A stretch of DNA of 64,000 bases. Origin: a candidate division WWE3 bacterium (GTDB taxonomy: Bacteria > Patescibacteriota > 4484-211 > GCA-002791395). Below the pieces are notes generated by a model. The model was not told the origin of the DNA. It saw only the letters and a program-made list of their open reading frames with translations, and searched no databases. The stretch spans positions 74,740 to 138,739 of the forward strand of contig JAAXWF010000004.1 of assembly GCA_013335095.1 (NCBI GenBank), read 5' to 3'. This document shows, one piece after another, positions 6,620-61,400 of the stretch; the stretch's first letter is position 1; each line of letters opens with the position of its first letter. The position numbers and the translations under genes are program-made.

Positions 6620-7399
6620 ATGCGTTATGATAGAAGTACCATGGACGCAACCGCACAACAAACCATGCCTGCATCAAAGACACCTGTATCATCGGCAGCA
6701 CTACGAGACCTAAAAAAATCCAACAAACTAAAAGACGAATTCATCGCCATCACCGTCCATAACCAAAAAACCCCACTAATCATCATCCAAGGATACGTAG
6801 ACCTCGTCCAAAAAGAAACCAAAAACTTATCCGACATGCAAAAACATGCACTCGAAGAAATCGAAAAACAATCCAAACGCCTCATCGAAATAAATTCACG
6901 ACTCCTATCGGTAACCAAACTGCATGGTGATGTCATCGCCCTTAAAAAAGAAACCGTAGATTTAGCCGAACTAACCCGCGACGTAGCCGCATCATTTGTT
7001 GTTAAATTGCAAAATAAACGAATCCGACTGGTCATAGACACCCCTGAACAACTCACAGCGAAAATAGACTGCGAATGGATTAGGGAAGTATGGGAAAACC
7101 TCCTCTCAAATGCCCTAAAGTTCACACCCGAAGGAGGAAAAATAACCATCTCAGTAAAACCTAAAGGACAAACAATCATGTGCCAAATAACCGACACCGG
7201 AATCGGAATAGACAAACAAGAAATACAAAACATCTTCGCCCCGTTCTATCGAACCCAAGATGCACTAACCGGTGGATATGATGGCATCGGGCTTGGCCTA
7301 TACATTGTAAAGTTGATCATTAAGGGGCATAATGGGAAAATCAGGATCGTCCCAAGTCATAAAGGAGCGCGAATCCAGTTTCTGCTGCCTAAAAATTAA
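6620..7399 (+). CDS. Sensor histidine kinase (HisKA + HATPase_c), soluble
   Basis: 259 aa. H-box region AITVHNQKTPL and ATP-binding N, G1 (DTGIGI) and G2 (GGYDGIGLGL) boxes. No TM segments. Confidence 0.7.
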   Translation: MRYDRSTMDATAQQTMPASKTPVSSAALRDLKKSNKLKDEFIAITVHNQKTPLIIIQGYVDLVQKETKNLSDMQKHALEEIEKQSKRLIEINSRLLSVTKLHGDVIALKKETVDLAELTRDVAASFVVKLQNKRIRLVIDTPEQLTAKIDCEWIREVWENLLSNALKFTPEGGKITISVKPKGQTIMCQITDTGIGIDKQEIQNIFAPFYRTQDALTGGYDGIGLGLYIVKLIIKGHNGKIRIVPSHKGARIQFLLPKN

Positions 7400-7402
7400 C
7401 CT

Positions 7403-7795
7403 ATGGCCACGATATTACTGATCGAAGATACACAACCTTTATCCGAACTCTACTCGTATAGTATTGGAAGTGCGGGTTATACGGTTGTCACGGCATCATC
7501 CGGCGTAGAAGGACTTGAAATAATCAAACGCCAACCCGTTGATTTGGTTCTACTCGACATCATGCTCCCGGGGGTAAACGGTCTCAACGTACTCAAACAA
7601 ATCAAGGAAAATCCAGAAACGAATCATATCCCCGTCATTATGGTTTCGGTGCTCGAACAAGACGCAATCTTAAAACAAGCTAGGGATGCTGGAGCCAATG
7701 GATATCTATTCAAGGATCACATCACCCCGGACGTGCTTGTCGAAGAAGTACAAAAATATTTAAAAACGGACCAACCGGTACCAAGCACTCCCTAA
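7403..7795 (+). CDS. Single-domain response regulator (REC only)
   Basis: 130 aa. Acidic pocket, phospho-acceptor D in LVLLDIMLPG, conserved K near the C-terminus. Confidence 0.7.
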   Translation: MATILLIEDTQPLSELYSYSIGSAGYTVVTASSGVEGLEIIKRQPVDLVLLDIMLPGVNGLNVLKQIKENPETNHIPVIMVSVLEQDAILKQARDAGANGYLFKDHITPDVLVEEVQKYLKTDQPVPSTP

Positions 7796-8190: not shown

Positions 8191-9603
8191 TTGTCACGTG
8201 GTACAATAAGCCCATACAAAAACCCAAAAGGCATGAATATTGATAACACATCACCAAAAGTAAATGAATCCAATTTCCGCAATTACGATGTTCGTGGTGA
8301 ATACTTAAAAGAGATTGATGAAACCACCGCATATCATATTGGTCGAGCATTTGTAGAATTCACAAAAGCAACAAATATTATTGTCGGTGGGGATATGCGA
8401 ACATCCACACCATCGTTAAAAGAAGCATTAATTCAGGGTATTTTAGAACAAGGTGCTAACGTATCCGATATCGGACTTTCAACAACTGACGGAGTATATT
8501 TTGCCACTCATCATTATCCGGATTTTGACGGCGGGATAATGGTAACCGCTTCTCATATGCCTCAACAATTTAATGGATTTAAATTTTTAAATAAAAACTT
8601 AGAACCAATCGGCAAAGGTTTTGGCATGGAAGAACTCTACCAAATAGCTCATACCCAAAACTACTCGCCTGTATCAGAACCAGGAACACGATCAAATAAG
8701 GATATTTGGAGTGATTACAAAGAATTTGTATTAGGATTTGCCAACATTCAATCGATCCGCCCGATGAAGGTTGTCATGGATGCAGGAAATGGTTTGGCCG
8801 GTTTTATTGTTAACAAGATTTATTTGGATCTTCACTTAGATATTATCCCGCTATATTTTGAGCCGGATGGAACATTCCCCAACCATGATGCTAACCCGAT
8901 CCTACCGGAAAACCGGATCGATATTATAAATAAAGTAAAAGAGACAGACGCTGACTTAGGTATTGCGTGGGATGCGGACTGTGACCGAGTTTATTTTATC
9001 GACGAAAAAGGTAACTACATTGACGGTGACTTTACTACGGTACTGCTTGGTCTACATATTCTTGAGCGCAAACCTGGTGCTGGAATCGTCTACGACATTC
9101 GAGCCAGTCACGCCGTAAAAGATTTAATTGAGAAAGCCGGAGGAAAAGCATATGCCGAACGAGTAGGCCACTCCTACATCAAAAGAAGAATGCGCCAAGA
9201 AGATGCCGAATTTGGCGGTGAGGTGAGCGGACACTATTACTTTAAACGCAATGCATATGCAGAAAACGGATTTATCGCTCCGCTGATGATTATGGAACGA
9301 ATATGCCGTTCAGGAAAATCAATCTCAGAGTTGATTAAATCCTTTGGCGATTACTTTATTTCGGGAGAAATAAACTCAGAGGTTCACGATCAGAACATGG
9401 TTATTCAGGCGATCGCAGGGAAATACGCTGATGCCGTTCACATCGATTATCGCGATGGTATTACCGTCGAATATGAGAATTGGCATTTTAATGTTCGCCC
9501 GTCCGCAAATGATCCGGTAATGCGCCTAAATCTTGAGGCAAATTCTAAAGAATTAATGGAACAAAAGCGCGACGAACTTTTATCCCTTATCCGAAGTTAT
9601 TAA
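8191..9603 (+). CDS. Phosphomannomutase/phosphoglucomutase (alpha-D-phosphohexomutase family)
   Basis: 470 aa. Catalytic serine loop TASHMP, Mg-binding DADCDR loop and sugar-binding GEVSGH motif. Confidence 0.75.
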   Translation: MSRGTISPYKNPKGMNIDNTSPKVNESNFRNYDVRGEYLKEIDETTAYHIGRAFVEFTKATNIIVGGDMRTSTPSLKEALIQGILEQGANVSDIGLSTTDGVYFATHHYPDFDGGIMVTASHMPQQFNGFKFLNKNLEPIGKGFGMEELYQIAHTQNYSPVSEPGTRSNKDIWSDYKEFVLGFANIQSIRPMKVVMDAGNGLAGFIVNKIYLDLHLDIIPLYFEPDGTFPNHDANPILPENRIDIINKVKETDADLGIAWDADCDRVYFIDEKGNYIDGDFTTVLLGLHILERKPGAGIVYDIRASHAVKDLIEKAGGKAYAERVGHSYIKRRMRQEDAEFGGEVSGHYYFKRNAYAENGFIAPLMIMERICRSGKSISELIKSFGDYFISGEINSEVHDQNMVIQAIAGKYADAVHIDYRDGITVEYENWHFNVRPSANDPVMRLNLEANSKELMEQKRDELLSLIRSY

Positions 9604-20081: not shown

Positions 20082-20177
20082 TTTATCCGTTATTAGGTAC
20101 ATATTTCATTTTCTATTTGAACCAATTCGTTATAATGTGATCGTTATTTTCATCCGGATACATTTCACCCAAGGAGG

Positions 20178-20711
20178 ATGACCGTGGGCTGTCGTCCACA
20201 TTTAAAGCCGCTCGTGGTTGCGGATGCTGATCTTGCCGAGATTGACCGAATTCTTTGCGAAGATCAACTTCCACCCAGGCTTCAGAAGAGGGCATTATGC
20301 CTATTGTTACTCAGTCGTGAAGAACCGATCGACGAGATCTGTCGGCAAACAGGACTAGTCAAAGGTTCTGTGTACTCGATCCGTCATCGGTATGAAGACA
20401 GAGGGATGAAGGTACTCGAGAAACCGGCACAGCCCCCTACCACGGCAGATTCGGATCGGTGGTCTGCGCAGCACCTCAAAACCCGGGGAAGCCGTTTGCG
20501 CCGAATACAATCCGATGAGTTAACCGCTCTGATCGAGATCTCTGCCCAAGATGATGCAGGTGAGCCCAAACGAAGGGCTCAAATCATTATCGATATTCAC
20601 TCGGGAATCAAGGCGATAATAGTAGCGCAAAGACTCGGAGTATCCCGTCAAGCAATCAGCGAGAAGGTCAGTAAGTTCAATCTATTTGGGTTGAGCTGGG
20701 TTCTCGCATAG
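20178..20711 (+). CDS. Tandem HTH protein with transposase-type (paired-like) helix-turn-helix modules; no catalytic domain
   Basis: 177 aa, GC-rich. Two modules matching the R-A-x-I-L-L-...-G-x-S-...-I-A-...-G-V-S pattern (RALCLLLLSREEPIDEICRQTGLVKGSVYSI... and RRAQIIIDIHSGIKAIIVAQRLGVSRQAISE...). Start may be the GTG at 20184, which gives better RBS spacing. Confidence 0.5.
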   Translation: MTVGCRPHLKPLVVADADLAEIDRILCEDQLPPRLQKRALCLLLLSREEPIDEICRQTGLVKGSVYSIRHRYEDRGMKVLEKPAQPPTTADSDRWSAQHLKTRGSRLRRIQSDELTALIEISAQDDAGEPKRRAQIIIDIHSGIKAIIVAQRLGVSRQAISEKVSKFNLFGLSWVLA

Positions 20712-20724
20712 GGTTTAACCCCAA

Positions 20725-20753
20725 GGGCAGGTCTAAACCACCTGCCCATTTAT
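20725..20753 (+). terminator. Hairpin terminator candidate (GGGCAGGT...ACCTGCCC)
   Basis: 8-bp perfect inverted repeat with 7-nt loop directly after the stop of the HTH gene, followed by ATTTATT. Confidence 0.4.
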
Positions 20754-21458: not shown

Positions 21459-21980
21459 TTAAATGGCAACAGATTCGGTTAAGTTGATCCTGCCAGCAAT
21501 AACGTCACGGAGGAACCGAGTCCATGGGTCCGTACCGTTTACTGTAAGCGGCCACATATGCACGGCCCATTCAATGATCCAATCCAAGCAGGGCTGTGTT
21601 CGACTGGGTCCATACAATCTTACCGCCATGGGTATCACCAGAAGGGTTGCCCCAAGATCAACGGTATGAAATCCCACTTCCACATACAGGGAAAGTCGTT
21701 GTCCAGCGGCATCAATCACCTTAACGACACCGTTGTAGATCGTAATTTGGATCGGATTGTCGTCGGCAAAGACAACCGAATCTTCGCCAATGTCGGATAC
21801 CGAAACATCGGTAATCTGACATTGATGCACCTGGGCTGCTATTTGAACAGCCTCTAGAACGCGTAGGGCGTTCTGTCCGATACGAACTGTCGGAGAATCC
21901 ATCACGAGCCTCCATCCATACAAGCTATATGGGTAAGATAACGACCGAATCATTGTAGTGACCATGCTTGATTCGGACAA
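21459..21980 (-). CDS. Hypothetical protein (GC-rich island)
   Basis: 173 aa ORF in a 55-60% GC segment. No recognisable motifs. Confidence 0.4.
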   Translation of the reverse strand: MSESSMVTTMIRSLSYPYSLYGWRLVMDSPTVRIGQNALRVLEAVQIAAQVHQCQITDVSVSDIGEDSVVFADDNPIQITIYNGVVKVIDAAGQRLSLYVEVGFHTVDLGATLLVIPMAVRLYGPSRTQPCLDWIIEWAVHMWPLTVNGTDPWTRFLRDVIAGRINLTESVAI

Positions 21981-22105
21981 CTAGATTAATTTCGTATACG
22001 GCTAACCAATACAAGAGTGAGGCGGTTTTGAATTGATACAAAGGAAGAAACCCGACAAGTATATAACTTGCCGGGCAAAGTTGCTTAGACGCCCCTTCTA
22101 GAGGG

Positions 22106-22657
22106 TCACACAGTGTAGGTATCGACGGCAAAGACATGTTCGGCTAAACCAGCACCCACCGTCCATATGACGGCTTTACTGAGGGTATCGATCCCCCACT
22201 CATATCGGGAAACGACAATGCGCTGTAGCGCGCCCTCAATAAGAGATGGTGAAAGTGCCCGAATCATCGGTAGCACGTCTGGGGCTGGTATTGTCCAACC
22301 GCTCAGTTTAGCGAGTAGGACAAATTCAGATACTCCCCGTAGGGCGGCCGATATTGTCCTTAAATCGACCTCGGTGGGTACGGTAACAGTAATTGCACCG
22401 AAGGGTGGGAGATGTACGGTGCCGTGAAGACAGACCCGAGCATCAGCCGAAAAAGTAACCGATACAGGAGCACGTTCAAACATGTCGCCATATCGATACT
22501 CAGCAAGCCCGGTGATCCGTGTGAGCTCATGGTCATGTAAAGGATCATGCCACCAAAGATCCTCAACCACACCACCAAAAACATGTACTAGATCGGCGAT
22601 TAGTTCGCCGGCCCTTTCCGCCAATGAAAGCGGTTCCGTCAGCGTGGATAGATCCAC
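22106..22657 (-). CDS. Hypothetical protein (GC-rich island)
   Basis: 183 aa ORF in a GC-rich segment. No recognisable motifs. Confidence 0.4.
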   Translation of the reverse strand: MDLSTLTEPLSLAERAGELIADLVHVFGGVVEDLWWHDPLHDHELTRITGLAEYRYGDMFERAPVSVTFSADARVCLHGTVHLPPFGAITVTVPTEVDLRTISAALRGVSEFVLLAKLSGWTIPAPDVLPMIRALSPSLIEGALQRIVVSRYEWGIDTLSKAVIWTVGAGLAEHVFAVDTYTV

Positions 22658-34078: not shown

Positions 34079-34377
34079 CCTCAAGTAGCCTATAATCATT
34101 GCATTAACCCCCTAAACATCCTATAATTAAAGTGCGTACAGCTACGCAAGTAGTTTTACGTACTTTGGTAATACCAAAGATGCACTTTTTTATACGCATG
34201 AATTTGAACTAATGTAACGTTCACGTTGCTCCTGCGCCTTATCCAGGCCGTTGAGGATATAATAGTTATGTCTTCTACGGCCCGGATAAGAGTGTCGGCC
34301 TTACAAGCCGACTCGGACAACCCCGCGCAATCGGGGTTTATTGGTGGCGGTTCTACCGCCCAGATGAGGAGATCGCA

Positions 34378-34683
34378 ATGGATACCGATCTGCTATGGAG
34401 CCGAATCGAGGAGCGGGCGGCGGTTATGGCGATAGTTGCGAGTGCGATACTGGACGAGGGGGGCACTTTCCCCGTCCGTTTTAATCGAGCACTCAAAATG
34501 GTCGCTGAAAATGAGATCGAACTTACGGTGAGGGAGTGGATACAGGTCCTTCGGGGCCTTGGCATCTACGACTTCAACCAGTACTTCGGGCTCATTGGAA
34601 ACGTCCGTGTACCTGGCGGAACGCTCCCGTACTACGATAAGTTCGATCGGGAGATGTCTGCTATCGATTGGCACGGTTTCTAA
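34378..34683 (+). CDS. Hypothetical small protein (island cassette gene 1)
   Basis: 101 aa, about 58% GC. Preceded by hairpin GGTGGCGGTTCTACCGCCCA and a GAGGAG RBS. Confidence 0.45.
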   Translation: MDTDLLWSRIEERAAVMAIVASAILDEGGTFPVRFNRALKMVAENEIELTVREWIQVLRGLGIYDFNQYFGLIGNVRVPGGTLPYYDKFDREMSAIDWHGF

Positions 34684-34721
34684 AAAGGTGGCGGTTCTAC
34701 CGCCCACAAGGAGAGGTACCA

Positions 34722-35126
34722 ATGGCGACCTCAGCAGGCAGCCGTGCGCAGCTCAAGTCCGTGATCGAGGCCCTCGGCGAAGTCTACACAGTCGCTCTGG
34801 ACCTGGGGTACAATCCCCAGCCGGGGCTTGACCGTAGAATCTTCGCCCGGATGGCTAGTGCCGCCCATAACGGCACGCACATCGTGATCGGAATACAGCG
34901 GGCCGCCAAGAGGGCTAAGGAGCTGGGTATCGAGATGAATCCCACCGATTGGCTCCCCTATCTGGGGGCCTTTGGGATCAACTCGTACGAGCTTCTGCTG
35001 CTGGCGATCGGGGACTACACGTTCCAGATCGTCGGCGATGACCTTACCAGCGCGATTGTCGCCGGCCTCAAGCCCTGGGACTTCCCCGGGTATGAGGGTT
35101 GGCGGCCGGAGGAATCCGGCAAATAG
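34722..35126 (+). CDS. Hypothetical small protein (island cassette gene 2)
   Basis: 134 aa. Start chosen at the ATG 7 nt after AAGGAGAGG, which follows a second copy of the GGTGGCGGTTCTACCGCCCA hairpin. Confidence 0.45.
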   Translation: MATSAGSRAQLKSVIEALGEVYTVALDLGYNPQPGLDRRIFARMASAAHNGTHIVIGIQRAAKRAKELGIEMNPTDWLPYLGAFGINSYELLLLAIGDYTFQIVGDDLTSAIVAGLKPWDFPGYEGWRPEESGK

Positions 35127-35286
35127 GTTCCGATTCGGCGTTTGCCGGGGCTGAGGGGGAGCAATCCACCCAAAGTCCCGGCCTTTTTTGTTATATCTCT
35201 TTTATTTCAATTTTTATTTGACGACCTACAATAATTAACCTATAATAATTTCGTCTTTTTCATCCGGATAACAAGGAGGTGGCTCA

Positions 35287-35868
35287 ATGAGCCAGAACCA
35301 AGGAACGCTACCAACCATTCTGGTAGACCTGTCGTTCAGGTATGCAGGAACGCTCCTGCATGCTACTCACATTGATGCCGATGGTAATGCCCAGGTTGAG
35401 TTCCCGATCAGCTTCGGCGGAGGACGACTCCGAAGTGGTCGACGCAAGAGTGAGTACTTCATCCTCACCCTAGAACTTTCTGAGCTAGTAAGAATCATGG
35501 CTCTCTTCCAGAACCTGATTCACCGGATCCCTGAGGTCCAGGCGATGGCCGAAAACGCCATCACGGTGATCTCGCAGCAGGGGACGAAACTAAACCGGGA
35601 GGTCACGATCAAGCCGATCGTACGCACCCTCGTGGTTGCGACATCCCTCCCATCACGGGATGAGTCAGAGGCCGAAGTTGTTCTGGCGGCGGGAACGCAG
35701 GTGAGCATCTGGGGAGTATGTGACCCAACTCACCCGTACTTCTACGCCACTATCGGGGGAAACCGTTCGGCGCTTATTCCGGCAACCAATGTCGAAAACG
35801 GCGCGGATCTGGCGACCCGAATCTTCAAGCAGGCGGCGGAGCTATTCCGCCCGCTGGGAGGTGAGTAA
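35287..35868 (+). CDS. Hypothetical protein (island cassette gene 3)
   Basis: 193 aa. Preceded by the conserved TATAAT-N10-TTTTCATCCGGATA-AAGGAGG leader. C-terminal half resembles the next ORF (GTQV..G motif). Confidence 0.45.
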   Translation: MSQNQGTLPTILVDLSFRYAGTLLHATHIDADGNAQVEFPISFGGGRLRSGRRKSEYFILTLELSELVRIMALFQNLIHRIPEVQAMAENAITVISQQGTKLNREVTIKPIVRTLVVATSLPSRDESEAEVVLAAGTQVSIWGVCDPTHPYFYATIGGNRSALIPATNVENGADLATRIFKQAAELFRPLGGE

Positions 35869-36173
35869 TGAGCAACCCCGGTCTTGACGAGCTCCCGCTT
35901 CGTATAACTGAGCGGGTTCATGACATGGTGAGAACGGAACCTGCCATAGTGGCTTACACCACGGTAGGGCTCCAACTGACCTCAGAAACCGCTGGTGCCC
36001 AAATTCTACCGATAGGCACACAAGTGCTCGTCGTCGGCATATTTGGGTACAATCCGCCACGACTAATCGTCATCTGGCCGGATGGATCTGAAAGTGGTGT
36101 GGAGAAGTCCATCATTGAAGATGGAGAGGCATTGATTACGAGGATCACTAAGCTCCGTGATCCATCGGCCTAG
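35868..36173 (+). CDS. Hypothetical small protein (island cassette gene 4)
   Basis: 101 aa. TAATG stop/start overlap with gene 3 (translational coupling). Followed by a strong terminator. Confidence 0.45.
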   Translation: MSNPGLDELPLRITERVHDMVRTEPAIVAYTTVGLQLTSETAGAQILPIGTQVLVVGIFGYNPPRLIVIWPDGSESGVEKSIIEDGEALITRITKLRDPSA

Positions 36174-36194
36174 CCATTTGAAGTGACAAAACCA

Positions 36195-36227
36195 CCCCAG
36201 GGACTAAAAAACCTGGGGCTTTTTTTA
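36195..36227 (+). terminator. Rho-independent terminator (CCCCAGG-loop-CCTGGGG + T8)
   Basis: 7-bp GC-rich stem, 10-nt loop, followed by TTTTTTT. Lies between the convergent island cassette and pgk. Confidence 0.6.
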
Positions 36228-36239
36228 TTTTAGGGAATA

Positions 36240-37466: not shown

Positions 37467-38933
37467 TTATAAAACCTCTTGTATTGTTATTGTATTCGTT
37501 GAACCCGGAACACGCCAGCGGCGACCGTGAACAATTAATAAACGATTACCTGGATGAGCGATACCTTGAGCCTTTAAGGCATCGACGGCTTCTTCAAGTG
37601 ATACGTCAGTCTCTTCGGGGAACGGTAGGTTAACCGGTTCAATACCATACGATAACTGGAGTTGACCGCGAATTGTTTCATCAACGGTAATTGCAAAGAT
37701 CGGAATATCAAGACGGAATCGCGATAATGAATACGCAGTGCGGCCAGTTTCACTAAAAACGATAATCGCATCGATATCAAAATTTTTGCGAGTTGAAACG
37801 ATCTTGTTTACCGCATAGGTTAAAATGTCGGTTTGATCCAAAGCTTTTTCCATAGATAAATCAGGAACATACATGTGGGCCTTTGTTTCATTGAACTCGG
37901 CGATTTTTGCCATAGTACGTACGGCTTCAACCGGATATTTACCCTGGGCACTTTCACCAGAAAGCATAATTGCATCGGTTCCATCAAACACAGCATTAGC
38001 AACGTCGGTTACTTCGGCACGTGTAGGCATCCGTTCGGTAATCATAGATTGGAGCATTTGAGTTGCAGTAATAACCGGCTTTCCAACAATACGGCAGGTA
38101 TTAATGATTTCATTTTGCCAATAAGCGATCTCTTCGAGCGGAGTCTCAATACCAAGATCACCACGAGCAATCATTATTGCATCTGATAAAGTTATGATTT
38201 CGCCTAAATGATGCAATGCCAAACTGGTTTCGATCTTTGAAACGATTTTGGCTGGCATTTTATATTCATCCAGTTTATTTTTCAAAACATTAATGTCTTC
38301 ACCGGTACGAATAAATGATAACGCTACGTAAGCGATTTCTAAATCTTTAAATGCATCTAGAAACATAACATCTCGTTCGGTAAGTGATGGGACATCAACA
38401 TACACTGTGGGTAAATTGACTCCTTTACGATTGCCAACGGTATAATTGTCTAGCGCGGTCGCAACAACAGAATCGCCTTCTTTACGAACAACTTCAAAAT
38501 GGATAAATCCATCATCGATTAAAATAATTGTTCCGATATTTAGTTCATTGATAATTTGTTGATTAGGAATAACAAACTCTTTTTCTTTACCGGTAAAATC
38601 TGCCGAAAAATATGCTTCTTCACCAGATTTAACTTCGACAGGTTGTTTGTTTGGTGTAGCAATACGGATTTCTGGACCTTGAAGGTCTACAAGAATACCA
38701 ACCGGCTTGTTCATGCGTTTGCTAATCGAAAGAACTGATTCGATTCGTTCACGATGCCACTCCGGCTCATTATGTTTTAGATTGAAACGAAATACATCAA
38801 CGCCCGCATCAATCATTTTTTCGATAGTATCAGGAGATTCCGACGCAGGTCCGAGCGTCGCAACTATTTTTGTTCTGCGCACGTTCATTATTCTAGTCGA
38901 TGATCCCGAATAATCAACCCCCAATACATACAA
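37467..38933 (-). CDS. pyk: Pyruvate kinase
   Basis: 488 aa ORF. Real start likely the internal Met (MNVRRTKIVATLGP, near 38888). K+/Mg-binding and MIARGDLG active-site motifs. Confidence 0.85.
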   Translation of the reverse strand: MYVLGVDYSGSSTRIMNVRRTKIVATLGPASESPDTIEKMIDAGVDVFRFNLKHNEPEWHRERIESVLSISKRMNKPVGILVDLQGPEIRIATPNKQPVEVKSGEEAYFSADFTGKEKEFVIPNQQIINELNIGTIILIDDGFIHFEVVRKEGDSVVATALDNYTVGNRKGVNLPTVYVDVPSLTERDVMFLDAFKDLEIAYVALSFIRTGEDINVLKNKLDEYKMPAKIVSKIETSLALHHLGEIITLSDAIMIARGDLGIETPLEEIAYWQNEIINTCRIVGKPVITATQMLQSMITERMPTRAEVTDVANAVFDGTDAIMLSGESAQGKYPVEAVRTMAKIAEFNETKAHMYVPDLSMEKALDQTDILTYAVNKIVSTRKNFDIDAIIVFSETGRTAYSLSRFRLDIPIFAITVDETIRGQLQLSYGIEPVNLPFPEETDVSLEEAVDALKAQGIAHPGNRLLIVHGRRWRVPGSTNTITIQEVL

Positions 38934-39040
38934 AAGACATACAAATTACCAACAATATTCACATTTTATTTGATGTAGCTATGGTATTTTGCTATCATCG
39001 TGGCGTTCACACTAGGCAAGGAATAATTAAGGAGGTGGCA

Positions 39041-39910
39041 ATGCCACGGCTACATGAGCTGGAAATCACCATTACGTTAAATGGTGAAAAGTCGGTGACA
39101 AATCTCGGACGAATAGCATTACACGATGCTGTTCGAAAAATAGTCGAGATGAACCCGACGGTTGGCCCGGCAAACATGTCGGTTCGTCAAGTCGATATAG
39201 ATCGGATCCTGCCGAATATAACCTTTCGCCAGCAGACGAACAGTCTATTTTCCCAACTGCTGGCAGAGCGAGTAGAAGCAGATCCGCAGCCACCCCTTCC
39301 CCACCATGTGAATGAAGAGGTATACGCCATCTGCCCCTGGTGCCGTAAAGAGGTTGGTGATGAGGTCTATCGAACTCTCAAGGATTGGAATTACATCCAG
39401 CCCGACTGGACACTGACCGACAAATTCGATGAATTCGAATGTCCACATTGCGGCCAAGTTATTGGTCGGTATTTAAGTGTGTGGCTGACCCAGCCAGTTA
39501 AACTGGGTGCGGCACTCTTTGCTAACCATCCAGTGGTGTACGGTGAACGGCTAGCTCGGTATAAAGAGCTACATTGGCTATTAGTAAATCTATCGGAAGA
39601 ACTAGGCCAATTGACACAAGTCGCGATTTTTGAACGATTTGGATGGCGCTGGAACCAGCTTCCTCCACTGGCTGAAGTGGCTCGATCAAAAGGAATTACG
39701 ATTGATCGGCGACGTAAGCAGGAACAGACGGGTCTTAGGAAATTGCGCAATCGGCGCAATGCCGAACAAATGACAGGAGCAGCCGACCCAACGGGGACCT
39801 TTGAAATATTAAGACTAAAACAGCAGATTGCTGATTTAGAAACACGGCTAAGAATATTAACCGTGGAAAACTCCAATCTGCAGGGACTCTTATTAGCTCT
39901 GCGGAAATAG
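39041..39910 (+). CDS. Zinc-ribbon protein with sigma-70 region-4-like HTH (paralog A)
   Basis: 289 aa from the ATG 7 nt after AAGGAGG. CPWC-x35-CPHC zinc ribbon. C-terminal IFERFGW...LAEVARSKGITIDRRRKQEQTGLRKLR closely parallels rpoD region 4 (LELRFGL...[27 protein letters not shown]). No region 2. Confidence 0.5.
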   Translation: MPRLHELEITITLNGEKSVTNLGRIALHDAVRKIVEMNPTVGPANMSVRQVDIDRILPNITFRQQTNSLFSQLLAERVEADPQPPLPHHVNEEVYAICPWCRKEVGDEVYRTLKDWNYIQPDWTLTDKFDEFECPHCGQVIGRYLSVWLTQPVKLGAALFANHPVVYGERLARYKELHWLLVNLSEELGQLTQVAIFERFGWRWNQLPPLAEVARSKGITIDRRRKQEQTGLRKLRNRRNAEQMTGAADPTGTFEILRLKQQIADLETRLRILTVENSNLQGLLLALRK

Positions 39911-40077
39911 AGCTAGTGTAAATACCGGCTAATGAGGGAATCTCATTGGCCGGTATATTAACGACACATACATTTCCATATCTCTCGACACGCTACCGTT
40001 TGCATAACATTATCGGCTTTGTTATCATTTCCCTGACTACAACCAGTAGTTGTTGGATAACGCAAGGGAGGTGCTCT

Positions 40078-41250
40078 GTGCCAAACCAAGACAGGATTGT
40101 CATCCTGTATGAGGTCAACGGCCATCGAGGTAGTTCTGAATACTTCGATATGACCTTTAATGATGCCCTGGCGATGTTTGTGCGGGAACGGCCGGAAATC
40201 GGTCCCCGACAGATCGCCCAGGTATTCCACGGGTTGGTCAGTAGTGAAAAGACCTACAACGGCTGGAGAGGCCGGGTCGACGCATACTACCTCAACGTTC
40301 CCCTTCCGGACCCAGATCCGATTGCCCCAGAAGTCGAAGACGAACTATCGGCCCAGTGCCCACGGTGCAAGGCCGATATCGGAGGATGGATCGTATCGAG
40401 CCTACCCCGGGACGATCTGTATCTTAACTTTGGGGTACCAAGTTTCGATTTCAGATGTCCAGGGTGTGGAACCGATTTAGAGATGTGGATACATAGCTAT
40501 TTGAACAAGCTTATGGCGGTGTTCAATGTAGTCCATGGAGGAATTGTAGAACGAGATAAGGCAGCACTGCGTTTAGTGCGCTTCTATCGCTCCGTTCAAC
40601 AGGTCCTGGTTGACCTGCATCAGCAGGAACCTGAGGTTTATAACGTCTTGGCTCATATGGTCGGACTCAAAGGAGTCTCGATTACCCAGAAGCAGGTAAT
40701 TATAGAACTGGGCCTGGGATCAGACTCCGTTCTAAGAAAGCTTATGGGTAAGGCAACAACGTTTTTGCGGCGCCACCCGCAAATGCAGGCAGCCTTCCGA
40801 TATCGGGATTTAAGCGACGAGGCAATAAATGCGTTCGTCGCCTCAGCCCAAGGAAGACAAGAAGAGGCGCTGGCAGAACTCGCGGCGCAAGTAGCCACGC
40901 TTTCGACGATGATCAATGAGGTCGCGAATCACCAACATGATGCGATCTTCAACCTCAGAGTCGAAGTGCTACTCCTGAGGGGCCTACCCCTGGCCGAAGC
41001 CCAGATCCTAGCCCTTCTTACCGTCGAGGATCTAGCGCTTACGCCAAGCCTGCGACGCTCGCTTAACATAGCACCCGTTCTCACCGAAATGCGAAACGCT
41101 GCCGGCAGAGTCTTTGCCGGTAATCTTTTGATCTGGCTCAGGTCAAAAGACCGAGAACAGGTAATCAAAAGTATCCCCAGAATGGGTCCATCTGGGATGG
41201 CCAGTATTGAAGGGGCATTCCTCCTTCTTGGGATTCAAGTTTACCCGTAA
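40078..41250 (+). CDS. Zinc-ribbon protein with sigma-70 region-4-like HTH (paralog B)
   Basis: About 390 aa from the GTG after GGGAGG. CPRC-x36-CPGC zinc ribbon. HTH segment VGLKGVSITQKQVIIELGLGSDSVLRKL. N-terminus parallels paralog A (MP..I.I..NG...GP). Confidence 0.5.
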   Translation: MPNQDRIVILYEVNGHRGSSEYFDMTFNDALAMFVRERPEIGPRQIAQVFHGLVSSEKTYNGWRGRVDAYYLNVPLPDPDPIAPEVEDELSAQCPRCKADIGGWIVSSLPRDDLYLNFGVPSFDFRCPGCGTDLEMWIHSYLNKLMAVFNVVHGGIVERDKAALRLVRFYRSVQQVLVDLHQQEPEVYNVLAHMVGLKGVSITQKQVIIELGLGSDSVLRKLMGKATTFLRRHPQMQAAFRYRDLSDEAINAFVASAQGRQEEALAELAAQVATLSTMINEVANHQHDAIFNLRVEVLLLRGLPLAEAQILALLTVEDLALTPSLRRSLNIAPVLTEMRNAAGRVFAGNLLIWLRSKDREQVIKSIPRMGPSGMASIEGAFLLLGIQVYP

Positions 41251-49437: not shown

Positions 49438-50013
49438 ATGATTAAGTGGATTAAATCTCGAATGTATCCATTGTCTGATAAATCCGACGCAGAATTAATC
49501 GCAGCGGCAAAACGCGGCGATAGGGATGCTTTTGGGCAATTATATTTGCGCCACCTTGATGCGATGTTTCGATATATTTACTTTCGGACGGGTGATTCAC
49601 TAACCGCCGAACAGATAGCTGCTGATGTGTTTGTGAAAGCATGGAAAAAGCTTGAATCGTACCATCCAAAGGCTGGAAGTTCATTTACATCGTGGATTTA
49701 TCGAATCGCCCGCAACCGGATTATTGATTATTATCGGACTCGCAATACTCGTAATCAATCACTCTCAATACAGATGGAAGATGCCCATCAACTAACATTC
49801 GATGAGCGGTTAGCAAAAATCGATAATGAACGAATGATTGAACAGTCGTTGCAGATTCTGACTGAAGAGCAGCGCGAGGTGATCATGCTTAAATATATCG
49901 AACGACTCGATTACAAGGAGATCTGTTCAATAACCGGTAAATCGAATATGGCAGTGAGGGCATTAGTATCAAGAGGTTTAAAAATATTACAAAAAAACAT
50001 TACAAAAAAATGA
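49438..50013 (+). CDS. ECF-type RNA polymerase sigma factor
   Basis: 191 aa. Region 2 (FRYIYFRTGD...AEQIAADVFVKAWKK, SWIYRIARNRIIDYYR) and region 4 (EQREVIMLKYIERLDYKEICSITGKSNMAVRALVSRGLKIL). Confidence 0.75.
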   Translation: MIKWIKSRMYPLSDKSDAELIAAAKRGDRDAFGQLYLRHLDAMFRYIYFRTGDSLTAEQIAADVFVKAWKKLESYHPKAGSSFTSWIYRIARNRIIDYYRTRNTRNQSLSIQMEDAHQLTFDERLAKIDNERMIEQSLQILTEEQREVIMLKYIERLDYKEICSITGKSNMAVRALVSRGLKILQKNITKK

Positions 50014-58457: not shown

Positions 58458-61400
58458 CTACCAGATTGCGCTCCAATATATGGTTGCATCAGTAGCAGAA
58501 GCGGATTCTACATAAATAACAAATCCATCTTTGGTGATCGATTCAACCCAGACCTTCGTATTATATGAAGGAGTTGTATTGATACTCTTTGGAGCCTCTT
58601 TCCAATCTTTAACCACAGGGATTCGGACTTGTCCGGCCGGTAGCGCAATTGAGCCACGGATCGAATCATTGGCATAGATCAAACCTTCTTTAATCTTGAG
58701 GTTTCCATCGATATCTACTTCGACTGCGCCGCCCATTATATCGAGGCTAGCCGCTCGAGTTGGTTGCAGTTTCAACGAAGATGCAACTGTTTCTAAGGAA
58801 CCGTTTTCACCATTAATCGTCAACATTCCGTTAGTTATATTCTTATTTACGACCAATTCTCCAACCGTTGCCTTTCCAAGAACAGTTAATGAATCCGAAA
58901 TTGCAGCATTTGTTAACTCGACTGAATTCATCTTCAATGTAGCACTTGTTTCTAATAGGGTGGCTAAATCATTGGCCGCTCCGCTAAAGGCACTCGGCTG
59001 ATACCAACCAGCTTGAATCATGACCAAAATTTGAGCACATCGAGATCCCGACGGCGCACCCTTAGGACATGCTATTGGCTCACCAACGCCATTATTCGGA
59101 TCAAATGGAGAAAGGGCTCGGCCAATTACCCAACCTGCATCAATTGCTTTTTGTCCAAATCCAATAACATCACTACCCGAGATTGGATCTCCAACTTCGA
59201 TATTTCCCGCTGTTGAGACTACATTAACCGGGATACGTCCGTTCAACGCAACGGCAACTTCTTTCTTGCTGCGTGGATCATTGCTTTGTCCAAACCCACC
59301 AAGTAAGACACCTGGTTTTTCAGATATTGCTCCGAGTACAGCACTTCGACTATTAGCTTTCTTTACGAATTCAGTTTCATAATCACCACTCTGAAATGCG
59401 CCAGGTACTGCATCTGGAACAGTTTGTGGATCAATCGAAACAAGGTCGCCAGCCTGTATAGATTCATCCAGTGTTGGGAAGTTTTCCGCTATATCATCAA
59501 TAGCAAAACTCGAAGAAATACCATATACAGTACCAGCCGCACGTGAAGCATCAATACAATCATCAGCGGTATCTAAACTATCGTCAGCACAAATAGCACC
59601 ATAGGCTAAGATTCCACTACCACCAATATTGGTTGAGGTTAAGGTCTGATCGCTACTTAATACAAGATCGTTGTTAATAGACACGTTACCAGCAGCTTCT
59701 AGAATAATTCCACCACTGTTGAATGTTCGCATTGTTAAGTCATTGCTTTCAAAGCTCTCACCCGCTTCGATGGTAAATGGACCATTCGATTTAATATAGG
59801 CGGCGGTTTGATTACTGAATAACATATCATACGCAATGGCAACGTCACCGGCAGCATTAAAGGAGTGTGGTAATTCCGAGGTAATTGCAGTTTCGGTAAT
59901 AGAGAACAACGATGAAGTACCGTCACGGGCAATAAATACATTACCAACGTTACCGTTAGAACCGACAGTGACCGCAAAAACATCACCCGTTGCAGTGGTC
60001 GCTGATCCAGGTGTCCAGTTAACGTTCATGACCGTACCGGTAGTTAATGCGGTTGATGATGACCCAAAGGTATATGCCGTACCGGTTGTTAATGAATTGG
60101 AGGCATACGTTAATCCGTTAGTTGTAGTACCAGTGAAGTTTTGTGTCCAAGTATTCGAGCCTTGGTTCACAACGAGCGCTGCGTCTAAGTCCAACGTGTC
60201 CTCAAGCTCAGCGAAGTCGAGACAATCGGTACAAGCAAAATCAGTCGCGTTAACCGTATCACCACTAAATGTAACGCTAGAGCCGGTCGTTGATACGGTA
60301 AGATTTCCTGATGAGTCAGTCTGAAATTCACTATAAACAGATCCATCAGTATATGTTAACCGAAGTTGCGCGGCAGATGCATCTAATACATCAAGTCGAC
60401 GATCGGGTCCGGAAGTACCAATACCTACATTAGCCGAAAAATAGTTTGAATCTTCGCCAGTTGAATAAATACCCCAGGCAGTGGCGGCAGCATCTGTTTG
60501 GGTAAATGCGGAATAATATCCATATACGTTATCGTTACCGGTGGCGTTTGCATCAATGGTGATATCATTTCGGATTGCATACATTGTTCGGGTTGAACCT
60601 GTATTTGTATCTTCAAAGTCAACCGAAAAACCAATCGCATTGCCAGTCGAAGAATCGATATTTACATCAATGACACCTGCCGTAGTGGTTGTATCAGTAG
60701 CCGCTGCATCAATTTGGAGATAGTTTGCGGCAGGTAAACTCCATACAGTGTTTCCTGAATCATTAACTGTTAAAACCGTGGTTCCGTTATCCTGAACGAT
60801 AAAATCACCAGTCGATGACAAGTTCGTGGTAACATTACCCGCACCGCTCGCAGTAAAGGTTAAATTATTAGCACCCATTGTGATACCCGTTGAAGCATCA
60901 AGGGTCATGGCATCAATAAGTTCAGTAAAATCGAGACAATCAGTACACACAAAGTCAGACGCCGTAATCGTACTACTGCTAGCCAAAATGTTTCCACCAC
61001 TAAATGACCACTCATCATTTGTAGTGTACGTAATCGTTCCGGTATCTCCATCTGACGCAAACATTGAAAGTACGGCATTAGCGGTTGCTCCAGTGCCGAT
61101 ACGTGCGGTGTTAGCCGAGACGTCAACGCTAAATGCGGACGCCAGAGTCGATCCACCAACCGCAAAATCCTCAGCTGTATCAGTTAAATACGTAATACCA
61201 GTGCCATCGGTCCATGGACTTGAAGCACCGCCACATGTCTGCCATTCAAATGTAGAGCCCGTTGATTCATAAGTTAGACATTCTTCATCAGCCTCTGAAT
61301 CAACCGAAGCCATATCTACGGGTAAAAGAGTATCATCTAAGATCTCACCAGCACTAATTGATCCAGTAGGCAGCACAACCTCACTGTCGCCGGTACCATT

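What the first reader, a model, noticed from the sequence alone, without database searches (positions are those of the whole stretch)
20131..20186. Conserved leader/operator shared by two separate GC-rich islands: TATAAT-N10-TTTTCATCCGGATA-AAGGAGG
Two leaders align at about 30/36 positions:
- 20131-20186, upstream of the tandem-HTH gene.
- 35241-35289, upstream of cassette gene 3.

The architecture is the same in both: a -10-like TATAAT, 10 nt containing TCGT, then TTTTCATCCGGATA, then AAGGAGG and the start codon.

The core ATCCGGAT is a perfect 8-bp palindrome lying just downstream of the -10. That is the classic position for a dimeric repressor operator. Related half-sites (TTATCCAGG / CCGGATAAG) flank the TATAAT at 34238-34290.

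The shared cis element links islands 14 kb apart to a common regulon or a common origin. The tandem-HTH protein encoded right behind one copy is the obvious candidate binder (autoregulation).
Basis: seen in the sequence. Interest (0 to 1): 0.7.

Follow-up and report, generated by a model that had tools for sequence, protein, structure and literature searches.

The report
Shared promoter-leader on two accessory genes
Two unrelated, strain-specific genes in an uncultured WWE3 (CPR) bacterium carry related copies of one promoter-plus-leader segment; the similarity is real, but nothing yet shows that it is a repressor binding site.

Summary
Both sites have TATAAT, 10 nt containing TCGT, the identical 14-mer TTTTCATCCGGATA, then AAGGAGG and a start codon. 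A further 17/19 block lies upstream. The pair is the top outlier among all intergenic pairs and among all 1711 TATAAT-anchored pairs (18/24 identical, background 6.2±2.2).

The window is a candidate division WWE3 metagenomic contig of about 41% GC. Both copies lie in strain-variable DNA:
- The tandem-HTH gene plus its leader is replaced in a close relative (SigA 96% identical, HTH 34%). DNA similarity stops at the sigA stop codon.
- The four-gene cassette is an insertion between SNase and PGK.

No copy of the module was found in the genome, metagenome or viral collections, and both downstream proteins are near-orphans.

I read it as one promoter/5'UTR module of common descent that drives leadered, Shine-Dalgarno-dependent expression of foreign-type genes, in a genome whose native genes look mostly leaderless.

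The operator/autoregulation idea is untested. The perfect palindrome is only 8 bp, the one ortholog lacks the motif, and a third copy of the 15-mer lies inside a native coding region. The "half-sites" at 34238-34290 are the stem of a long hairpin.

Modest interest.

The parts
20102..20120 (+). Site 1 upstream block A (TATTTCATTTTCTATTTGA). It holds a TTGA(A) -35-like core, but lies only 8-10 nt from the -10.
   Evidence: 17/19 identical to 35203-35221 and colinear with the 14-mer match. No -35 at 16-18 nt spacing was found by the promoter scan.
20131..20136 (+). Site 1 -10 hexamer, TATAAT.
   Evidence: Read. It lies 41 nt before ATG 20178.
20141..20144 (+). Site 1 conserved TCGT. G 20143 is the predicted transcription start, 7 nt after the -10 (inferred).
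   Evidence: The start position is an inference from the usual sigma-70 spacing.
20147..20160 (+). Site 1 14-mer TTTTCATCCGGATA (palindrome ATCCGGAT at 20152-20159). Predicted position about +5 to +18 of the transcript.
   Evidence: Exact match, one of two copies in the window.
20171..20186 (+). Site 1 Shine-Dalgarno AAGGAGG (20171-20177) and start codon. ATG 20178 has zero spacing; GTG 20184 has 6-nt spacing and is the more plausible start.
   Evidence: Spacing argument from general knowledge of SD-start distances.
20178..20711 (+). Tandem-HTH protein gene (177 aa, 51% GC, GC3 0.50). It is related to the DNA-binding N-terminus of IS630-type transposases and has no DDE domain.
   Evidence: Pfam HTH_23 1.3e-11 and HTH_29 1e-10. 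NCBIfam IS630, residues 37-119, below cutoff. AF2 model pLDDT 87.6: two helical domains and a floppy linker. Only 20 relatives among 1.84e9 representatives.
20725..20747 (+). Terminator-like hairpin that closes the HTH transcription unit.
35144..35189 (+). Terminator-like hairpin plus T-run after cassette gene 2. It separates genes 1-2 from the site 2 unit.
35203..35221 (+). Site 2 upstream block A (TATTTCAATTTTTATTTGA). It overlaps the -35 TTGACG at 35218-35223.
35218..35246 (+). Site 2 near-consensus sigma-70-type promoter, TTGACG-17-TATAAT (11 of 12).
35251..35254 (+). Site 2 conserved TCGT. G 35253 is the predicted transcription start (inferred).
35257..35270 (+). Site 2 14-mer TTTTCATCCGGATA (palindrome at 35262-35269).
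35273..35295 (+). Site 2 translation-initiation region: AAGGAGG, then the hairpin TGGCTC-AAT-GAGCCA with the ATG (35287) in its loop.
   Evidence: 21/22 identical to L033:7374-7395, the start region of another GC-rich orphan gene about 2.5 kb left of the window.
35287..36173 (+). Cassette genes 3 (193 aa) and 4 (101 aa), both orphans. Gene 4 is a distant paralog of the C-terminal part of gene 3.
   Evidence: GC3 0.64 and 0.53.
36195..36226 (+). Terminator-like hairpin (CCCCAGG...CCTGGGG plus T-run) at the end of the cassette.
   Evidence: Read.
34079..36239 (+). The whole four-gene GC-rich cassette, an insertion between the SNase and PGK genes.
   Evidence: In relative L032, PGK and SNase are adjacent. 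In relative L031 a GIY-YIG gene sits there instead.

Best explanation
**What it is**
The two sites are diverged copies of one promoter-plus-5'UTR module of about 80-90 nt. The module belongs to accessory, foreign-type DNA of this WWE3 genome, not to its conserved backbone.

**How each copy works**
- It provides a sigma-70-type -10. Site 2 also has a near-consensus -35.
- The predicted transcription start is the G of the conserved TCGT.
- It gives a leader of about 30-40 nt that begins with GU(U/C)(A/U)UUUUCAUCCGGAUA, and a strong Shine-Dalgarno sequence.
- GC-rich orphan genes are therefore expressed as leadered, SD-dependent mRNAs, in a genome whose native first genes are mostly transcribed from a -10 placed 6-8 nt before the ATG.

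**Why the two copies are alike**
The similarity comes from common descent: duplication or recombination among accessory units, the process described as promoter propagation or promoter reuse.

**Shown and inferred**
- Shown: the similarity is non-chance, both copies lie in strain-variable DNA, the downstream genes are unrelated, and there are no copies in the other collections.
- Inferred: promoter activity, the transcription start, and that the fully conserved 14-mer in the initially transcribed region is under constraint (for a regulator, for promoter escape, or for the mRNA 5' end).
For: **Non-chance similarity in colinear blocks**
-.

**Pattern of conservation**
- Blocks coincide with promoter and leader parts. 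Spacers diverge (4/10 between the -10 and the 14-mer), and there are two indels of 9 and 8 nt.
- Block A is retained in site 1 although the indel puts its TTGA at a useless 8-nt spacing. That favours descent over convergence.

**Both copies are in variable DNA**
- DNA identity to relative L030 is about 88% in sigA and ends at the stop codon, so the whole leader is replaced there.
- The cassette is absent from relatives L032 and L031.

**Foreign-type genes**
- GC3 is 0.46-0.78 against 0.28-0.36 for native genes, with normal codon periodicity.
- The downstream proteins are unrelated to each other.

**Other island genes share regulatory pieces in a mosaic way**
- Genes 1 and 2 keep a start region that is 80% identical over 44 nt although the proteins are 28% identical.
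- The start region of gene 3 is 21/22 identical to that of another orphan gene.

**Leadered versus leaderless**
- 19 of 52 native genes have a -10 ending 4-13 nt before the start. None of the 12 GC-rich genes does.
- Four GC-rich genes have a perfect TATAAT 39-41 nt upstream, plus an SD.
Against: - There are only two copies, and the genome outside about 74 kb could not be scanned.
- The pair fails the published formal threshold for a propagated promoter (at least 50 nt at 80% identity or more). The longest BLAST blocks are 18/20 and 17/19.
- Site 1 lacks a usable -35, so it may be a weak promoter, or the gene may be read through from sigA.
- There are no expression data.
- Perfect conservation of 14 nt between diverged spacers suggests a specific function that this explanation leaves open.
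Confidence: 0.55

Rival explanations
1. **Operator and small regulon.** The tandem-HTH protein binds the ATCCGGAT-centred 14-mer just downstream of the -10. It represses its own gene and cassette genes 3-4. This can coexist with common descent of the module.
For: - The 14-mer keeps exactly the same distance from the -10 (10 nt) in both sites, while its distance to the SD differs (10 versus 2 nt). That ties it to transcription rather than to translation.
- It is 14/14 identical between spacers that have diverged.
- The gene behind site 1 encodes a confidently folded two-domain HTH protein.
- N-terminal transposase fragments that repress by binding their own promoter are an established precedent (IS1 InsA; general knowledge).
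- The relative with a different HTH allele lacks both the motif and the cassette. With only two genomes this is weak.
Against: - The perfect symmetry is only 8 bp. Bipartite HTH proteins of this type usually read long asymmetric sites.
- The ortholog's leader has no such motif.
- A third copy of TATTTTCATCCGGAT lies inside a native coding region (L033:12200-12214).
- 3 of the 5 ATCCGGAT copies in the 74 kb are within genes.
- No conservation was found in the genome, metagenome or viral collections.
- No binding data exist.
Confidence: 0.2
2. **Chance.** Two strong promoters with consensus -10 and SD sequences happen to share a 14-mer.
For: - Repeated 14-mers are common: 58 in the 74-kb sample.
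- The repeat finder lists many two-copy 30-nt families of similar quality.
- TATAAT and AAGGAGG are generic signals that other island genes share too.
Against: - The pair is the top outlier among intergenic pairs and among the 1711 TATAAT-anchored pairs.
- There is a second colinear 17/19 block.
- The register relative to the -10 is identical.
Confidence: 0.1
3. **RNA-level element.** The shared 5' end of the two mRNAs (G-U-N-N-UUUUCAUCCGGAUA) is recognised by an RNA-binding protein, an sRNA or an RNase. Alternatively its U-rich tract acts as a translational enhancer.
For: - All three copies of the 13-mer lie on the sense strand of a transcription unit.
- The motif would sit at the very 5' end of the predicted transcripts.
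- A 5'UTR is itself unusual in this genome.
Against: - No shared or significant secondary structure (z -1.4 and +0.1).
- No Rfam match.
- The distance to the SD and start codon is not conserved.
Confidence: 0.08
4. **Relic of a mobile element end.** The module is the left terminal region, with its internal promoter, of a decayed IS630-like element. The HTH gene would be what remains of its transposase, and site 2 a solo end.
For: - The HTH protein is most similar to IS630 transposase N-termini, and Mos1 transposase is among the top fold matches.
- Transposase genes often start close to an inverted repeat that carries their promoter (general knowledge).
Against: - No DDE domain.
- No inverted copy of any part of the module in the window.
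- No second HTH gene copy.
- The family also contains standalone arrays of 2-5 HTH repeats rather than transposases.
Confidence: 0.05

Closest known systems
Putative mobile promoters / promoter propagation (Matus-Garcia, Nijveen and van Passel 2012, PMC3488235)
   Same: Homologous non-coding sequence lies directly upstream of non-homologous genes within one genome. Most published families also have just two members.
   Different: This pair is much more diverged than the published definition allows (at least 50 nt at 80% identity or more). It is conserved only in blocks, with indels. It also includes the 5'UTR and SD, and both copies lie in accessory DNA.
Promoter-proximal operators of plasmid or phage global repressors, such as KorA of RK2/RP4 (12-bp palindromic operators at several promoters)
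   Same: A short palindrome sits at a fixed position next to the -10 of more than one promoter in accessory DNA. An HTH protein is encoded behind one of them. KorA is among the weak fold matches.
   Different: The perfect palindrome is 8 bp, not 12 or more. There are only two sites. The protein is a tandem HTH related to transposases, not a KorA homolog (E > 0.1). No binding is shown.
Autoregulation by truncated transposase DNA-binding proteins (for example IS1 InsA binding the IS1 ends, which contain the promoter)
   Same: The protein corresponds to a transposase N-terminal HTH region without a catalytic domain, and it is encoded directly behind the candidate site.
   Different: No insertion-sequence structure is present: no inverted repeats, no DDE gene, no extra copies. 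The HTH gene is positionally conserved next to sigA in a relative.

Membership tests
Putative mobile promoter (PMC3488235) | Similar sequence within about 150 nt upstream of two genes whose products are not homologous | tested here: met
   The HTH protein and gene 3 give no meaningful blastp hit to each other. Both copies end at the start codon.
Putative mobile promoter (PMC3488235) | Upstream neighbouring genes are not homologous | tested here: met
   SigA against cassette gene 2 gives only a 30%/79-aa match at pairwise E 0.004-0.01, with no Sigma70_r3 Pfam hit. I treat this as noise.
Putative mobile promoter (PMC3488235) | BLAST alignment of at least 50 nt with at least 80% identity (E < 1e-4) | tested here: not met
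   The longest blocks are 18/20 (E 6e-5) and 17/19. The gapped alignment has 57 matches in 86 columns.
Dimeric-repressor operator | Inverted repeat long enough for two recognition helices about one helical turn apart (typically 12-20 bp) | tested here: not met
   The perfect palindrome is 8 bp. The extension is 9/12 per half in site 2 and 8/13 in site 1 (sequence).
Dimeric-repressor operator | Overlaps the core promoter or transcription start | tested here: met
   It starts 10 nt after the -10 in both sites. The transcription start itself is only predicted.
Dimeric-repressor operator | Motif retained upstream of orthologous regulator genes | tested here: inconclusive
   The single ortholog (L030, 34% identity) has no such motif. 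It carries a different near-palindrome, GGTATCTTCGATGATACC, between the -10 and the SD. Divergence is too great for a firm negative.
Dimeric-repressor operator | Specific binding by the cognate protein | not testable with these tools
   Needs EMSA, DAP-seq or protein-DNA co-folding.
IS630-family insertion sequence | DDE transposase catalytic domain | tested here: not met
   Only the first 88 of 299 profile positions match, and no DDE domain is present. The next gene is a SAM methyltransferase.
IS630-family insertion sequence | Terminal inverted repeats | tested here: not met
   No inverted match to either site anywhere in the window.
Known cis-regulatory RNA (Rfam 15) | Match to a covariance model, or a shared stable fold | tested here: not met
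   No family at gathering score, and none at E <= 5 over either site. The folds are not significant and not shared.

The most novel reading that the evidence does not exclude
A private two-promoter regulon. A hyper-divergent tandem-HTH protein derived from a transposase, always encoded just after sigA, would bind the +5 to +18 14-mer. It would thereby control its own gene and an orphan cassette. This would be one example of a wider, undescribed class of GC-rich, leadered, SD-dependent accessory genes with shuffled expression modules in CPR genomes that are otherwise largely leaderless.
Probability: 0.15. Interest if true: 0.55.

Novelty: new member of a known kind. Interest (0 to 1): 0.3.

Why it matters
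Taken alone, the shared leader is a small result: one more case of a reused promoter segment, in an uncultured bacterium, upstream of genes of unknown function.

The context matters more:
- In this WWE3 genome the accessory genes stand out by GC content, by codon usage, and by using a 5'UTR with a strong Shine-Dalgarno sequence. Native genes appear mostly leaderless.
- These accessory genes exchange pieces of their expression signals.

If this holds genome-wide, it gives a simple sequence signature for recently acquired genes in CPR bacteria. It also gives a handle on how such genes become expressed.

The candidate regulator-site pair is cheap to test in vitro.

Tried and rejected
**Searches for further copies of the motif**
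- Scans of the genome, metagenome and viral collections returned only unrelated chance hits, or none.
- The cassette DNA has no match in the phage or plasmid collections.

**Searches for relatives of the downstream proteins**
- The word-based search found only the query itself for the HTH protein and for gene 3.
- PHROGs, NCBIfam and PADLOC gave nothing for the cassette proteins.
- The PDB sequence search found nothing for the HTH protein.
- Foldseek against the PDB gave no hit below E 0.1.
- The single-sequence AlphaFold model of gene 3 is unusable (pLDDT 38.5).

**RNA-level checks**
- The two 5'UTRs have no shared structure.
- There are no Rfam matches.

**Ideas rejected**
- Restriction-site idea: TCCGGA is not unusual in frequency, 10 against 15.8±3.9 expected.
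- Cassette gene 2 resembling sigma region 3: pairwise E 0.004, but no Pfam support.
- A 14-mer shared between the L033 terminator and L030 (E 0.044): judged chance.
- The L030 leader palindrome does not recur in the DNA available.

**Could not be done**
- One protein at the right end of the window could not be looked up. The genome beyond about 74 kb was not scanned.

Full report
**Source and setting**

The window is a metagenome-assembled contig of a candidate division WWE3 bacterium (CPR/Patescibacteria). The assignment comes from the NCBI names attached to its proteins and from Logan sample SRR11449211. Overall GC is about 41%.

- Site 1 follows the dnaG-sigA pair (Pfam).
- Site 2 lies inside a 2.2-kb stretch of 53-61% GC, between a staphylococcal-nuclease-like gene and the phosphoglycerate kinase gene.

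**Checking the observation**

| Feature | Site 1 | Site 2 |
|---|---|---|
| TATAAT | 20131-20136 | 35241-35246 |
| TCGT, within the 10-nt spacer | 20141-20144 | 35251-35254 |
| TTTTCATCCGGATA | 20147-20160 | 35257-35270 |
| AAGGAGG | 20171-20177 | 35273-35279 |
| Start codon | ATG 20178 | ATG 35287 |

- Ungapped identity from TATAAT to GGATA is 24/30. Adding the SD after an 8-nt indel gives 31/37.
- At site 1 the ATG abuts the SD. GTG 20184, six nt further on, is the more plausible start.
A 17/19 block, TATTTCAnTTTnTATTTGA, lies at 20102-20120 and 35203-35221. It is colinear with the rest but 9 bp closer to the -10 in site 1.

**Chance or not**

An exact 14-mer repeat means little on its own. 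The 74 kb available contain 58 repeated 14-mers and 167 repeated 13-mers, and the repeat finder lists many comparable 30-nt pairs. The whole arrangement, however, is an outlier by three tests:
- It has the best local alignment among all 992 comparisons of intergenic regions: 37 against 30 for the runner-up. Shuffles give 15.8±2.4, and none of 2000 reaches 37.
- In a whole-window blastn, each site's best non-self hit is the other site, in two colinear blocks.
- Among all 59 perfect TATAAT hexamers, taken as 1711 pairs, identity over the next 24 nt averages 6.2±2.2. This pair scores 18 and the next best 14.

I conclude that the similarity is real.

**What the two copies sit in**

The genes behind both copies have foreign-type codon usage with normal coding periodicity. 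GC3 is 0.50-0.78, against 0.28-0.36 for sigA, PGK and the methyltransferase. Both proteins are near-orphans:
- The word-based search of 5.8 billion clusters returns only the query itself for each.
- A full HMMER scan of 1.84 billion representatives finds just 20 weak relatives of the HTH protein, and a single full-length one, P0003 (34% identity, E 4e-19).

P0003 is informative.
- It lies in a 4.3-kb contig from another sample (L030), directly downstream of a sigA whose product is 96% identical to the window's.
- DNA identity is about 88% through the end of sigA and stops at the stop codon.
- From there on, the promoter, the leader, the HTH gene and the next gene all differ.
- The L030 HTH gene is also GC-rich against its flanks.

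So a gene of this HTH family is a positionally conserved but replaceable module after sigA, and the leader travels with the module.

For site 2:
- A more distant relative (L032, PGK 66% identical) has PGK and the nuclease gene 4 nt apart.
- The closest relative (L031, PGK 78% identical) has a GIY-YIG nuclease gene next to PGK instead.

The four-gene cassette at 34079-36239 is therefore an insertion at a variable spot. Site 2 lies inside it, between a terminator after gene 2 and gene 3. Both copies of the element thus belong to accessory DNA.

**The generic and the specific parts of the 'architecture'**

Native genes here mostly lack a Shine-Dalgarno sequence.
- 19 of 52 have a -10-like hexamer ending 4-13 nt before the start codon, most often 6-8 nt. 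Examples are sigA, dnaG and the gene at 49438. This implies leaderless mRNAs.
- SD sequences among native genes appear mainly at genes internal to operons.

The GC-rich genes differ.
- None of the 12 is of the leaderless type.
- Nine carry GGAG(G).
- Four (9651-, 20178+, 22106-, 35287+) have a perfect TATAAT 39-41 nt before the start.

So 'TATAAT, about 30 nt, AAGGAGG, start' is the common format of island genes. Only block A, TCGT and the 14-mer are specific to the two sites.

Other island genes share other pieces:
- Genes 1 and 2 are 28% identical paralogs, yet keep a hairpin-plus-SD segment that is 80% identical over 44 nt.
- Gene 4 is a distant paralog of the C-terminal part of gene 3.
- The SD-hairpin-ATG segment of gene 3 is 21/22 identical to the start region of another GC-rich orphan gene about 2.5 kb left of the window. 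That gene has a different promoter and no 14-mer.

The expression signals of these accessory genes are therefore mosaic. They are better conserved than the proteins they serve.

**Mechanism**

- Site 2 is a near-consensus sigma-70-type promoter, TTGACG-17-TATAAT.
- Site 1 has the -10 but no -35 at a workable spacing. Retention of block A at a spacing where its TTGA cannot act as a -35 argues for descent with an indel rather than convergence.
- In both sites a G lies 7 nt after the -10, inside the conserved TCGT. If that is the start, the mRNAs begin G-U-(U/C)-(A/U)-UUUUCAUCCGGAUA.
- The 14-mer keeps its distance to the -10 but not to the SD (10 against 2 nt). This links it to transcription or to the mRNA 5' end rather than to translation initiation.
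- RNA folding gives no shared or significant structure, and Rfam gives nothing.

**The operator hypothesis**

The HTH protein is a credible DNA binder.
- Pfam gives HTH_23 and HTH_29.
- NCBIfam matches the IS630 transposase N-terminus, below its cutoff, and there is no DDE domain.
- The AlphaFold model is confident (pLDDT 87.6). It shows two helical domains joined by a floppy linker.
- The best fold resemblances, none significant, are to Mos1 transposase, sigma factors, KorA and paired domains.
- Its relatives are arrays of two to five such HTH repeats.

Points in favour of an operator:
- The position is fixed relative to the -10.
- The 14-mer is perfectly conserved.
- Truncated transposases acting as repressors are a known precedent.

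Points against:
- The perfect palindrome is only 8 bp, with weak flanking symmetry.
- Bipartite HTH proteins usually read long asymmetric sites.
- The ortholog's leader lacks the motif. At 34% identity the specificity could have changed, though, and that leader has its own near-palindrome.
- A third copy of TATTTTCATCCGGAT lies inside a native coding region, at L033:12200-12214.
- There is no conservation elsewhere.

I put this hypothesis at about 0.2. It is compatible with the common-descent reading.

**The third site**

The sequences at 34238-34290 are the two arms of a hairpin with 25-nt arms (84% complementary), with TATAAT at its tip. The hairpin lies in a 247-nt stretch upstream of gene 1 that folds at -98 kcal/mol, z = -6.9. 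No Rfam family matches it. The word CCGGATA is not over-represented. This site is not evidence for an operator.

**Comparison with known systems**

- The closest described phenomenon is promoter propagation, or 'putative mobile promoters' (PMC3488235).
  - The pair meets the qualitative definition: related upstream sequence with unrelated genes on both sides.
  - It fails the formal threshold of at least 50 nt at 80% identity.
- It may work like the multi-promoter operators of plasmid global repressors such as KorA, or like IS1 InsA autoregulation. Membership in either family is not supported.
- It is not an IS630 element: no DDE domain, no inverted repeats, no extra copies.

**Verdict**

This is a real, private, diverged promoter-leader module shared by two accessory transcription units. 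I rate it as a new member of a known kind, of modest interest. The regulatory reading is open and cheap to test. The leadered-versus-leaderless split between accessory and native genes, and the hyper-divergent HTH gene after sigA, are the more interesting by-products.

Noticed in passing
whole window; examples 18996 (sigA), 17148 (dnaG), 49438, 16221, 43402: Native genes (GC below 48%) mostly lack a Shine-Dalgarno sequence. 19 of 52 have a -10-like hexamer ending 4-13 nt before the start codon, which suggests leaderless mRNAs. None of the 12 GC-rich genes does. Nine of them carry GGAG(G), and four have a perfect TATAAT 39-41 nt upstream.
   Followed up: partly
window 20082-20711 versus L030:1295-2177: The HTH gene after sigA is hyper-divergent or replaced between close relatives. 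SigA is 96% identical and the HTH protein 34%. DNA similarity ends exactly at the sigA stop codon. The L030 version has an extra N-terminal HTH repeat (probable start GTG 1380) and is also GC-rich.
   Followed up: partly
window 34079-36239; L032:3849-3853; L031:3024-3305: The PGK-SNase junction is a variable spot. One relative has nothing there (4-nt gap), the closest relative has a GIY-YIG nuclease gene, and this genome has a four-gene orphan cassette.
   Followed up: yes
window 34134-34380: The 247-nt GC-rich region upstream of cassette gene 1 folds into a chain of about six hairpins (-98 kcal/mol, z -6.9). One has 25-nt arms with TATAAT at its tip (34238-34290). No Rfam match. It could be a structured leader or a small RNA.
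   Followed up: partly
window 34343-34386 and 34687-34730: The hairpin GGTGGCGGTTCTACCGCC plus SD is repeated at 80% identity in front of cassette genes 1 and 2, whose proteins are only 28% identical. Gene 4 is a distant paralog of the C-terminal part of gene 3. The cassette grew by internal duplication, and the start regions are conserved better than the proteins.
   Followed up: partly
L033:7300-7731 (about 2.5 kb left of window position 1): Another GC-rich orphan gene (ATG 7387, + strand, 114 aa) has an SD-hairpin-ATG segment 21/22 identical to that of gene 3 (35274-35295), but its own promoter. The gene called in the public record on the opposite strand (7327-7776) is probably wrong. More GC-rich islets lie at L033:6666-7241 and 8323-9105.
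   Followed up: partly
L033:12200-12214: A third copy of TATTTTCATCCGGAT (15/15 to site 1) lies on the sense strand inside a native 41%-GC gene for an MGMT/ATL-like 132-aa protein. TTTTCATCCGGAT is the only true three-copy 13-mer in the 74 kb examined. Chance is possible, but it remains unexplained.
   Followed up: partly
window 38900-41250: Two GC-rich paralogous orphan genes (336 and 434 aa, 23% identical, E 9e-9) have weak zinc-ribbon hits. The first also has very weak hits to sigma-factor C-terminal models (E about 0.002-0.006).
   Followed up: no
window 58458-63965: A very large minus-strand ORF (over 1835 aa, running to the window end) holds internal repeats of about 1245-1380 nt at 76-93% identity.
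   Followed up: no
window 21459-22657: Two further GC-rich orphan genes lie on the minus strand (173 and 183 aa, 49-52% GC), just beyond the native methyltransferase that follows the HTH gene. The whole region after sigA appears variable, since the relative L030 has different genes there.
   Followed up: no
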